Shown piece after piece: positions 30,001 through 33,000 of a stretch of DNA of 64,000 bases. The stretch is from Pecten maximus. Its lineage: Eukaryota. Made by a program: the position numbers. The stretch lies in the NCBI RefSeq assembly GCF_902652985.1, contig NC_047025.1:2976001-3040000 (forward strand). The letters are read 5' to 3'. How positions within the stretch are numbered: the first letter of the stretch is position 1; each line of letters starts with the position of its first letter.

Positions 30001-33000
30001 TAGCAACTGATGAAAGAGCTGGAAAATGAACGAGAGAGAAGATGGAAGTCCGAGCAGGCAAGCAAGAAACTTGTGGACCACATCAAGTCTCTTCAGACCA
30101 AAGGTTAATATTGTCTTAATTCTCAAGGCCTAAGTTTGATATTGTCTTAATTCTCAAGGCCTAAGTTTGATATTGTCTTAATTCTCAAGGCCTAAGTTTG
30201 ATATTGTCTTAATTCTCAAGGCCTAAGTTTGATATTGTCTTAATTCTCAAGGCCTAAGTTTGATATTGTCTTAATTCTCAAGGCCTAAGTTTGATATTGT
30301 CTTAATGCTCAAGGCCTAAGTTTGATATTGTCTTAATGCTCAAGGCCTAAGTTTGATATTGTCTTAATTCTCAAGGCCTAAGTTTGATATTGTCTTAATT
30401 CTCAAGGCCTAAGTTTGATATTGTCTTAATTCTCAAGGCCTAAGTTTGATATTGTCTTAATTCTCAAGGCCTAAGTTTGATATTGTCTTAATTCTCAAGG
30501 CCTAAGTTTGATATTGTCTTAATTCTCAAGGCCTAAGTTTGATATTGTCTTAATGCTCAAGGCCTAAGTTTGATATTGTCTTAATTCTCAAGGCCTAAGT
30601 TTGATATTGTCTTAATTCTCAAGGCCTAAGTTTGATATTGTCTTAATTCTCAAGGCCTAAGTTTGATATTGTCTTAATTCTCAAGGCCTAAGTTTGATAT
30701 TGTCTTAATTCTCTACAGACTTAAAGTTAATATTGTTTTAATTCTCTCCGCCTAAGGTTAATATTGTCTTAATTCTTTACAGACCTAAGGTTAATATTGT
30801 CTTAATGCTCAAGGCCTAAGTTTGATAAAGTCTTAATTCTCTACAGACCTAAGGTTAATATTGTCCTAATTCTCTACAGACCTAAGGTTAATATTGTCTT
30901 AATGCTCAAGGCCTAAGTTTGATATTGTCTTAATTCTCTACAGACCAAAGGTTAATATTGTCTAATTCTCTCAGCCTAAGATTAATATTGTCTTAATTCT
31001 CTAGACCTAAGGTTAATATTGTCTTAATTCTCTACAGACCTAAGGTTAATATTGTCTTAATTCTCTTGGCCTAAGTCTGATATTGTCTTAATTCTCTACA
31101 GACCAAAGGTTAATATTGTCTTAATTCTCTACAGACCAAAGGTTAATATTGTCTTAATTCTCTACAGACCTATGGTTAATATTGTCTTAATTCTCTACAG
31201 ACCTAAGGTTAATATTGTCTTAATTCTCTACAGACCTAAGGTTAATATTGTCTTAATTCTCTAGAGACCTAAGTTTGATATTGTCTTAATTCTCTACAGA
31301 CCTAAGGTTAATATTGTCTTAATTCTCTAGAGACCTAAGTTTGATATTGTCTTAATTCTCTACAGACCTAAGGTTAATATTGTCTTAATTCTCTACAGAC
31401 CTAAGGTTAATATTGTCTTAATTCTCTACAGACCAAAGGTTAATATTGTCTTAATTCTCTTCAGACCTAAGGTTAATATTGTCTTAATTCTCTACAGACC
31501 TAAGGTTAATATTGTCCTAATTCTCTACAGACCTAAGGTTAATATTGTCCTAATTCTCTACAGACCTAAGGTTAATATTGTCTTAATTCTCTAGAGACCT
31601 AAGTTTGATATTGTCTTAATTCTCTACAGACCTAAGGTTAATATTGTCTTAATTCTCTAGAGACCTAAGTTTGATATTGTCTTAATTCTCTACAGACCAA
31701 AGGTTAATATTGTCTTAATTCTCTTCAGACCAAAGGTTAATATTGTCTTAATTCTCTACTGACCTAAGGTTAATATTGTCTTAATTCTCTAGAGACCTAA
31801 GTTTGATATTGTCTTAATTCTCTACAGACCAAAGGTTAATATTGTCTTAATTCTCTTCAGACCAAAGGTTAATATTGTCTTAATTCTCTACAGACCTAAG
31901 GTTAATATTGTCTTAATTCTCTACAGACCAAAGGTTAATATTGTCTTAATTCTCTTCAGATCAAAGTTTCATATTTTCTTAATTCTCTACAGACCTAGGT
32001 TTGATATTGTCTTAATTCTCTACTGACCTAAGGTTAATATTGTCTTAATTCTCTACAGACCTAAGTTTGATATTGTCTTAATTCTCTACAGACCAAAGTT
32101 TGATATTATTTCAATTCTCCAGACCTAAGGTTAATATCGTCTTAATTCTCTTCAGACCAAAGGTTCTTAATTCTCTACAGACTTAAGGTAATTAATAAAT
32201 ATTGTCTTAATTCTCTGCAGATCTAAGGTTATTATATTTTCTTAATTCTCTACAGACCAAAGGTTAATGTTGTCTTAATACTCTACAGACCTAAAATTGA
32301 TATTGTCTTAATTCTCATCAGACCTCACTAAGATAAATTTTCTTCAGAAATTATCTTGCTACACTCTTATCCCTCCAGCGAAATCAGGTTGTTTATTTTG
32401 TGGCATTTTTTCAATGTCATCTCAACACGGATATGTCGTAATTGATTCCAAATTAATTCCTTTGATTTGGAACCAGGCCATGTGAAAGAGGAAACGGTAA
32501 ATTGGTATCTTAATAGGCCTGGTGCTCCAGCTAAATGTACACTCTGCTGGGTAGGAAAAGGATGTTTGTTTGGCTAATGTGTACACACAGTCCTTCAATG
32601 TTTGTTATTGGTGATGATGTGTGATGGGTAGCCCTATTGGCCAACGGAATGGGGGACAAAATGGTCATCGCAGCTCTATTTGTTGTGTAAATCACGACAT
32701 TCTGGGTGAGATTGTGACATAGTCAACAAAAAGAAAGTTCGTGTCAGAGCTAATGTAGATTTATCTTGACCATGAGTGACCAGAAGGGTCAATCCACGCT
32801 AATAGATTAGCGGTATTGCTTTCTGTGTCACGCTTGGCTTCCTATAGTATGAACGGATCTGATGAAAGGTACGGAGAGTTCAAAAGCCGGGGTCGGTATT
32901 GATGACCCCTCACTATAGATTAGCTACCAAACAATTGATTTTGACAAGAAAAAGAAACCAAATTTCTGAGTTTTTAGATTTGTAGCCTCATTACAGGAGC

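What the first reader, a model, noticed from the sequence alone, without database searches (positions are those of the whole stretch)
30088..32325. Second junction-seeded array: 2.2 kb built from exon B's last 16 nt plus donor, with the donor altered in the units nearest the exon
Seen: the 37-nt junction TCTCTTCAGACCAAAG|GTTAATATTGTCTTAATTCTC (30088-30124) reappears verbatim at 31720 and 31852, and dozens of distal 33-bp units carry AAG|GTTAAT. The first ~19 units (30125-30710, 31 bp) instead read cctaagtttgat and have lost the AAG|GTTAAT donor. Read-through gives GGT TAA (stop). Each 33-bp unit also resembles branch point, acceptor, 7 nt and donor (cttaattctctacAG|ACCTAAG|GT). Inference: two of six exons in one gene independently seeded arrays at their donor. 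The donor-altered proximal buffer may reflect selection against competing donors next to a weak authentic site.
Basis: partly seen in the sequence, partly recalled or inferred. Interest (0 to 1): 0.7.

Follow-up and report, generated by a model that had tools for sequence, protein, structure and literature searches.

The report
Minisatellite born from an exon-intron junction
A 2.2-kb tandem repeat in an intron of a scallop centrosome gene (LRRCC1-like) grew out of a 33-base piece that straddles the end of an exon and its splice donor, a kind of repeat already described in human genes and in amphioxus.

Summary
Window 30088-32325 is a 70-unit head-to-tail array. Its first unit is the last 16 nt of a coding exon, the GT donor and 17 nt of intron.

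The exon belongs to an LRRCC1-like gene of a pectinid scallop. Its 33 residues, including the final ...LQTK, are conserved as far as fish and echinoderms. So the exon is ancestral and the array derives from it.

Units 2-20 are a near-identical 31-bp variant without the donor. Thirty of the 49 later units repeat AAG|GTTAAT. A unit network puts the 31-bp variant at a tip, 8 steps from the exon copy. It is one derived variant that was amplified recently, not 19 separate donor losses.

A second, unrelated 23-bp array starts at the donor of exon E. It keeps consensus donors in every unit next to the exon. This counts against a general "buffer" rule.

Junction-spanning minisatellites are known: human F7, 6-16, CBS, LMNB2 and PDGF, and the amphioxus "mirages" (PMC1557585, PMC3087553). 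In F7 only the most upstream donor is used.

Verdict: real, a new member of a known kind. The selection idea is untested.

The parts
30004..30103 (+). Exon B of an LRRCC1-like gene. It encodes QLMKELENERERRWKSEQASKKLVDHIKSLQTK plus the first base of an Ala codon.
   Evidence: tblastn of scallop and oyster LRRCC1 proteins hits 30004-30105. Conservation from bivalves to fish. Acceptor ...tccatag| and donor AAAG|gttaat are read.
30088..30120 (+). Unit 1 of the array: the last 16 nt of exon B, the authentic donor (GT at 30104-30105) and 17 nt of intron.
   Evidence: TRF array start. Exact 37-mer recurs at 31720 and 31852. Unit table.
30121..30709 (+). Proximal block: 19 units of 31 bp (TCTCAAGGCCTAAGTTTGATATTGTCTTAAT), none with the donor; 16 identical, 3 with T>G at the first base.
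   Evidence: Best GT in the block scores 4 of 9 against the consensus. The variant is a tip of the unit network, 8 steps from the exon copy.
30710..31092 (+). Heterogeneous transition zone, units 21-32. It mixes 33-bp donor-bearing units with several different 31/32-bp variants, including two copies of the G-form of the proximal variant. Probably the old proximal edge of the array.
31093..31950 (+). Core of 26 units of 33 bp (units 33-58) in 8 variants. It includes the two exon-identical units (31720, 31852) and internal higher-order duplications, for example units 50-52 and 54-56, which are 132 bp apart.
31951..32325 (+). Degenerate distal edge, units 59-70: length variants of 25, 31, 35 and 40 bp, with the donor kept in 3 of 11 complete units.
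33952..34070 (+). Exon C (AKDGDQLKDT...DRAK). It fixes the reading frame of the B-C junction.
   Evidence: The orthologues read ...LQTK|AKDGD.
41327..41466 (+). Exon E of the same gene, donor CAG|GTAAGG.
41463..42125 (+). Sister array, 23-bp unit ACAG|GTAAGGGTCAGTGGTCAGT. Its first unit holds the last 4 nt of exon E and its donor. 26 further units all begin AG|GTA.
   Evidence: TRF, sequence, unit table.
17853..17970 (+). Exon A (homology from 17866; acceptor inferred), donor GTG|GTAAAT. The 7-kb 50-bp array downstream reaches back in degenerate form to 18030, 59 nt after this donor, and does not include it.

Best explanation
This is a junction-spanning intronic minisatellite, the kind called a 'mirage' in amphioxus and typified by the F7 intron 7 VNTR in humans.

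How it arose (inferred):
- A 33-bp piece made of the last 16 nt of a conserved LRRCC1 exon, its GT donor and 17 nt of intron was duplicated in tandem, in place.
- The duplication probably used the short TCTC repeat at both ends of the piece.
- Slippage or unequal exchange then expanded it to about 70 units.
- Because the exon copy sits at the 5' edge and is held by coding selection, all growth went into the intron.

Later turnover followed the usual pattern of tandem arrays:
- a homogenised core;
- degenerate edges;
- most recently, block amplification of one derived 31-bp edge variant that had lost the GT. This produced the 589-bp donor-free stretch next to the exon.

Splicing most likely still uses the most upstream, authentic donor. 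The 30 downstream copies are probably silent, and any use of them would meet an immediate in-frame TAA.

Shown here: the anatomy, the exon's ancestry and the variant relationships. Inferred: the duplication mechanism, the silence of the pseudo-donors and the neutrality of the proximal block.
For: - Array anatomy and the exact 37-mer recurrences.
- Exon identity: exon E hits LRRCC1-like proteins of Mizuhopecten (96%), Argopecten and Ylistrum. All six exons map by tblastn.
- Exon B aligns without gaps to 19 of 20 named orthologues examined, including ...LQTK or close variants at its end, from scallops to Oryzias. The Pinctada model aligned elsewhere. So the exonic 16 nt predate the array.
- No copy of the unit outside the array in the window.
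- Network path from exon variant to proximal-block variant: v1, v14, v9, v21, v16, v2, 8 steps in all. Units 2-20 are the most distant from the exon copy at 7-8 differences. Units 33-58 are the closest at 0-5.
- The CTT>CTA form (v14) is synonymous. The commonest unit (v9) would place TAA in the exon frame. So the polarity runs from exon to array (read).
- Precedent: F7, 6-16, CBS, LMNB2 and PDGF minisatellites have a first monomer spanning an exon-intron boundary, and in F7 only the most upstream site is used (PMC1557585, abstract, introduction, results section 6 and discussion read).
- Amphioxus mirages duplicate splice sites without disturbing splicing. They show homogenised centres, with the units at the cluster boundaries left out of that homogenisation (PMC3087553 section 16; PMC3902484, one passage).
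Against: - No RNA evidence for this species was available, so donor use is inferred from orthologous protein models and from human minigene work.
- No eukaryotic genome collection could be searched. Unit copies at unlinked loci, and the state of the orthologous intron in other scallops, remain unchecked.
- The youngest, homogeneous block lies at an edge next to the exon. In the 50-bp array after exon A the proximal edge is degenerate instead. Placement of the block by chance is assumed, not shown.
- Two arrays starting exactly at donors in one gene is unlikely under uniform placement: P about 2e-4 for two or more within 5 nt (a post hoc test). A purely neutral, position-blind birth process does not explain this.
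Confidence: 0.78

Rival explanations
1. One reading: the donor-free 31-bp block next to the exon was favoured by selection. Copies of the weak donor AAG|GTTAAT close to the authentic site would be mis-used, giving extended exons with a premature stop. Variants lacking GT were therefore the only ones allowed to expand there.
For: - 0 of 19 units 2-20 carry the donor, against 30 of 49 later units.
- The first identical pseudo-donor lies 653 nt away.
- The authentic donor lacks +3 purine and +5 G.
- In human 6-16 and CBS the two pseudo-sites nearest the exon are used (PMC1557585, introduction).
Against: - The 19 units are one amplified variant, 16 of them identical, so this is a single event.
- The sister array at exon E has pseudo-donors from 25 nt onward. 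All 26 units begin AG|GTA and 20 of 26 read GTAAGG.
- F7 pseudo-sites identical to, or stronger than, the authentic site (consensus value up to 91) do not compete with it (PMC1557585, abstract and discussion).
- By consensus count the donor scores 7 of 9, no weaker than the donors of exons C, D and F.
Confidence: 0.14
2. The array has a function in splicing of this intron. The repeated U1-binding sites or AG...GT modules might raise local U1 occupancy, help a weak donor, suppress premature polyadenylation in the intron, or act as recursive or micro-exon splice sites.
For: - 30 donor copies, and 27 copies of CAG-7 nt-GT modules apart from the exon copy.
- Two donors of one gene carry such arrays.
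Against: - No conservation or expression data.
- The two arrays share nothing but AG|GT.
- The proximal 589 nt have no donor-like site.
- The same introns hold six other unrelated arrays, and 41% of the window is minisatellite. Repeat growth here needs no functional explanation.
Confidence: 0.05
3. The array is a dispersed or transposon-borne satellite that landed beside the exon, or the exon end was overwritten by the array, so the resemblance does not mean birth at the junction.
For: Only that genome-wide copies could not be checked, in a genome very rich in minisatellites.
Against: - The 16 exonic nt encode residues conserved across Metazoa.
- The match is in register, and exact over 37 nt to two units.
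- No other copy in 64 kb.
Confidence: 0.03

Closest known systems
Human F7 intron 7 37-bp VNTR (PMC1557585)
   Same: The first monomer spans the exon/intron boundary. The authentic donor is followed by copies identical in sequence. The unit is tens of bp long. The donor is non-consensus.
   Different: - F7 has 5-9 repeats; this array has about 70.
- F7 includes 4 exonic nt; here 16. The sister array at exon E includes 4.
- All F7 copies keep the donor, whereas here the 19 units next to the exon lack it.
- F7 splicing was tested experimentally; nothing was tested here.
Amphioxus 'mirages' in Adh3, globins BflGb6/9, TnC and PGBD5 (PMC3087553 section 16; PMC3902484, passage)
   Same: - Minisatellite-like tandem duplications of exon/intron boundaries in a minisatellite-rich invertebrate genome.
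- Several per genome.
- Many, but not all, repeats keep AG/GT.
- Homogenised centres, with the units at the cluster boundaries left out of that homogenisation.
- Regular splicing reported as undisturbed.
   Different: - Different phylum: a mollusc.
- Far more copies here (70 against 3-6 in the globins).
- The globin units are 150-160 bp.
- The original Adh3 paper (PMC117041) was not held and is known to me only through citation.
Human 6-16 (IFI6), CBS intron 13, LMNB2 and PDGF junction-spanning minisatellites (as listed in the PMC1557585 introduction)
   Same: The donor is reiterated 10-25 times in the intron.
   Different: In 6-16 and CBS the two proximal pseudo-sites are used as well as the authentic one. 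Whether that happens here is unknown.
Ordinary intronic minisatellites (VNTRs)
   Same: Head-to-tail units of 10-100 bp, variant interspersion, block amplification and degenerate edges. Eight such arrays lie in the complete introns of this gene within the window.
   Different: This one overlaps coding sequence and a splice site. Mutation polarity at one end of human minisatellites is recalled from memory (Jeffreys and colleagues, 1990s) and was not looked up here.
Rogers' model of intron gain by tandem duplication of an AG|GT-containing segment (cited in PMC3087553 section 16)
   Same: Tandem duplication across AG|GT creates extra splice signals.
   Different: No new intron or exon is evident here. 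The duplication lies at an existing, ancient junction.

Membership tests
Junction-spanning minisatellite (mirage / F7 type) | Head-to-tail tandem array with a unit of about 10-160 bp | tested here: met
   TRF: period 33, 69.4 copies, 89% matches. 70 units resolved.
Junction-spanning minisatellite (mirage / F7 type) | The first monomer contains exonic bases and the splice site of a real exon | tested here: met
   Unit 1 is 16 nt of exon B plus the donor. The exon is verified by tblastn and by conservation across 19 orthologues.
Junction-spanning minisatellite (mirage / F7 type) | The donor sequence is reiterated within the intron | tested here: met
   30 further copies of AAGGTTAAT, but 0 of 19 in units 2-20.
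Junction-spanning minisatellite (mirage / F7 type) | Normal mRNA uses only, or mainly, the authentic most upstream donor | not testable with these tools
   No transcript data. Indirect only: orthologous protein models read ...LQTK|AKDGD, and read-through stops at GGT TAA.
Junction-spanning minisatellite (mirage / F7 type) | Copy-number polymorphism between alleles or individuals | not testable with these tools
   Only one haplotype is in hand.
Dispersed or transposon-borne satellite | The same unit at unlinked loci | tested here: inconclusive
   None outside the array in this 64-kb window. No eukaryotic genome collection was open, so the genome-wide state is unknown.
Coding tandem repeat (exon extension) | The open reading frame continues from the exon through the units | tested here: not met
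   The exon frame reads AAA GGT TAA. The commonest unit carries TAA in that frame.
LRRCC1 (CLERC) gene, host of the array | Collinear match of successive exons to LRRCC1 orthologues | tested here: met
   Six exons in order match P0001 residues 378-616 at 80-94% identity. Names are as given by NCBI records. The LRR part lies outside the window. Pfam found nothing on single exons.

The most novel reading that the evidence does not exclude
In scallops, as suspected for amphioxus, 5' splice junctions are preferred birthplaces of minisatellites. Here 2 of 6 donors in one gene carry one, with P about 2e-4 under uniform placement. Mis-splicing costs then decide which variants may expand next to the exon: a non-consensus donor gets a donor-free buffer, while a consensus donor tolerates identical copies 23 nt apart. 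That would make these arrays natural, genome-wide experiments on 5' splice-site choice in an invertebrate.
Probability: 0.12. Interest if true: 0.6.

Novelty: new member of a known kind. Interest (0 to 1): 0.3.

Why it matters
On its own this is one more junction-spanning minisatellite.

It matters a little for three reasons:
- It places the 'mirage' phenomenon in a mollusc. My full-text searches found no such report for bivalves, though the library is incomplete.
- One gene offers two contrasting natural constructs: about 26 consensus pseudo-donors at 23-nt spacing, and a weak donor followed by a 650-nt donor-free stretch and then 30 copies. RNA-seq from this species could read these directly as a test of upstream-first donor choice outside mammals.
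- Gene predictors can be misled by dozens of perfect donors.

Tried and rejected
- Pfam on the five exon translations one by one: no family above cut-off. The best hits were chance-level, TraY at E 0.051 and LisH_TPL at E 0.14. One search failed on my wrong coordinates.
- PDB sequence search with exon E: nothing meaningful, E 1.7.
I used exon E instead, then a named public orthologue.
- I did not search a joined (spliced) model. Exons were searched one at a time.
- Rfam at gathering threshold, and ARAGORN, on the whole window: 0 hits each.
- Coding reading of the array: rejected because of an immediate stop. The 67-87-aa open frames inside it are repeat artefacts in another frame.
- Chance resemblance: rejected (shuffles; exact 37-mers).
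- The TCAAG shared by the 31-bp unit and the exon upstream of the repeat: I judged it coincidental, because 31-bp intermediates link that unit to the 33-bp units.
- A splice model trained on this species: not feasible with six donors. Only a 9-position consensus count was made.
- Abalone TSSK1-like paper (PMC6905558, passages): its 27-bp minisatellite is simply intronic and not relevant.
- Cañestro 2002 (PMC117041): not held.
The genome collection holds only bacteria and archaea, and the similarity collections hold only phages, plasmids and E. coli. None can answer the genome-wide question.

Full report
**What is there**

Window 30088-32325 is a tandem array: TRF gives period 33, 69.4 copies and 89% matches. 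The window has no N.

I cut the array in the register of its first unit and obtained 70 units:
- Unit 1 (30088-30120) is TCTCTTCAGACCAAAG|GTTAATATTGTCTTAAT.
- Units 2-20 (30121-30709) are 19 units of 31 bp, TCTCAAGGCCTAAGTTTGATATTGTCTTAAT. Sixteen are identical and three carry G at the first base.
- Units 21-32 are a mixed zone of 33-bp units and several different 31/32-bp variants.
- Units 33-58 are 26 units of exactly 33 bp, in 8 variants.
- Units 59-70 are degenerate.

The donor 9-mer AAGGTTAAT occurs 31 times in the array: the authentic site plus 30 copies. It is in none of the 19 units 2-20 and in 30 of the 49 units 21-69. The first identical pseudo-donor has its GT at 30757, 653 nt after the authentic GT at 30104. 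Inside the 31-bp block the best GT matches MAG|GTRAGT at only 4 of 9 positions.

With the 33-nt consensus at up to 3 mismatches there are 37 matches, all inside the array. Each of 100 shuffles gave none, and there are none elsewhere in the window.

**The exon is real and old**

I searched the gene model exon by exon and left the joined, spliced model out.

- Pfam gave nothing for single exons.
- Exon B is 33 aa, too short for the homologue search.
- Exon E (46 aa) hit proteins that NCBI names 'leucine-rich repeat and coiled-coil domain-containing protein 1-like' in Mizuhopecten yessoensis (96% identity), Argopecten irradians and Ylistrum balloti.
- tblastn of these proteins and an oyster orthologue against the window found six collinear exons on the + strand and no others. 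They are A (to 17970), B (30004-30103), C (33952-34070), D (34385-34519), E (41327-41466) and F (47218-47334).

So the window is from a pectinid scallop, not human.

I then searched with a named public orthologue and aligned exon B locally to 20 named orthologues. It aligns without gaps in 19 of them. The Pinctada model aligned to a different segment.
- The three scallops read ...VDHIKSLQTK|AKDGD.
- Oysters read ...LQGK|AKEGD.
- Solemya and two fishes read ...LQTK.
- Lingula reads ...MRTK.
- Echinoderms and hemichordates read ...LQAK, ...IQSK and the like.

The 16 exonic nt inside unit 1 therefore encode an ancient, constrained segment. The array must derive from the junction, not the reverse.

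Polarity inside the array agrees. The CTT>CTA variant is synonymous. The commonest unit (ACC TAA G) would be a nonsense codon in the exon frame (read).

**History read from the units**

In the aligned units, distance from the exon copy is 7-8 for units 2-20 and 0-5 for units 33-58. Units 52 and 56 are identical to the exon copy, and seven units differ from it by one base.

A minimum-spanning network of the 28 variants runs from the exon variant v1 to v14, v9, v21, v16 and finally v2, the proximal block. That is 8 steps, and v2 is a tip. Other 31-bp variants (units 22, 29, 30, 32) and two copies of the G-form of the block variant (units 24, 27) lie in the mixed zone at 30710-31092.

My reading, which is inference:
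- The mixed zone is the old proximal edge of the array.
- One GT-less edge variant was then amplified as a block next to the exon copy.

So the 'first 19 units lost the donor' amounts to one or two events, not 19.

**The sister array**

Exon E ends ...CAACACAG|GTAAGGGTCTGAGTGGTCAGT, followed by ACAG|GTAAGGGTCAGTGGTCAGT repeated.

After the authentic donor there are 26 further units. All 26 begin AG|GTA. Twenty read GTAAGG, three GTAAAG, one GTAGGG and two GTACAC. The first pseudo-donor lies 25 nt from the authentic one and has the same 9-mer.

It has no donor-free buffer. That is one case for the buffer idea and one against.

The 7-kb 50-bp array after exon A is not junction-seeded. Its degenerate edge reaches 18030, 59 nt after the donor. 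For 17971-18090 the alignment score is 56, against 17.7 ± 4.0 for shuffles.

Placing the eight arrays of the complete introns at random gives P about 2e-4 for two or more starting within 5 nt of a donor. This test is post hoc, on a window picked for this feature.

**Known relatives**

*PMC1557585* (abstract, introduction, results section 6 and discussion read)
- It lists 6-16, CBS, LMNB2 and PDGF as further genes with such minisatellites.
- In F7 the pseudo-sites are functional but silent. The most upstream site wins, even against pseudo-sites with a consensus value up to 91.

*PMC3087553* (section 16 and passages)
- It describes amphioxus 'mirages', minisatellite-like tandem duplications of exon/intron boundaries.
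- Many, but not all, repeats keep AG/GT.
- Splicing is normal.
- Centres are homogenised, and the units at the cluster boundaries are left out of that homogenisation.

*PMC3902484* (one passage) adds TnC and PGBD5.

*PMC2812944* (passages) notes that variable tandem repeats at exon-intron boundaries can create introns in human paralogues.

The original mirage paper was not held.

For bivalves my searches found nothing. One search listed 3 papers, none on this by title or abstract, and one search listed 0. The library lacks most subscription journals, and supplements were not consulted.

**Mechanism and verdict**

Most likely (about 0.78): in-place tandem duplication of the junction, ordinary minisatellite turnover, use of the authentic upstream donor, and silent pseudo-donors. 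Any slip would meet GGT TAA.

It is contradicted by the sister array and by the F7 experiments. By simple consensus count the donor (7 of 9) is no weaker than those of exons C, D and F, although it lacks +3 purine and +5 G.

Still open:
- Genome-wide uniqueness of the unit.
- The state of the orthologous introns.
- Allelic variation.
- Transcript evidence.

None of these could be checked with the collections available.

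Noticed in passing
window 1-64000: Seventeen tandem arrays of about 360 bp or more, with units of 14-56 bp, cover 26,459 nt, which is 41% of the window. Nearly all lie in introns of the LRRCC1-like gene.
   Followed up: partly
window 5955-7193, minus strand: An uninterrupted 412-codon frame matches Pfam 7tm_1 (rhodopsin-family receptor; E 9e-27, 94.6 bits against a cut-off of 30.5). 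It looks like an intronless receptor gene, antisense to the LRRCC1-like gene and upstream of its first detected exon (A), probably inside an LRRCC1 intron.
   Followed up: partly
window 17971-25368: The 7-kb array of 50-bp units (141 copies) has about six degenerate units at its proximal edge. These reach to 59 nt after the donor of exon A, so it is close to that junction but does not span it.
   Followed up: yes
window 33358-33913: A 36-bp array with a degenerate A-rich tail ends 38 nt before the acceptor of exon C. Whether it ever touched the acceptor was not examined.
   Followed up: no
window 61711-63867 (+) and 26230-27348 (+): Long stop-free frames of 718 and 372 codons lie entirely inside the 21-bp and 14/28/42-bp arrays. 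They are repeat artefacts that could be mistaken for genes.
   Followed up: no
window 48753-48826: A 36-bp direct duplication has a tRNA-like look (GGATGGAGCTCTGATAGCTCAGCCGGTTAGAGTGCA). ARAGORN and Rfam call nothing there. It may be a remnant of a tRNA-derived SINE.
   Followed up: partly
window 47335-64000 and 1-17852: No further LRRCC1 exon was detected in more than 16.6 kb downstream of exon F or in 17.8 kb upstream of exon A (tblastn, E up to 1). The flanking introns are very long and array-rich.
   Followed up: partly
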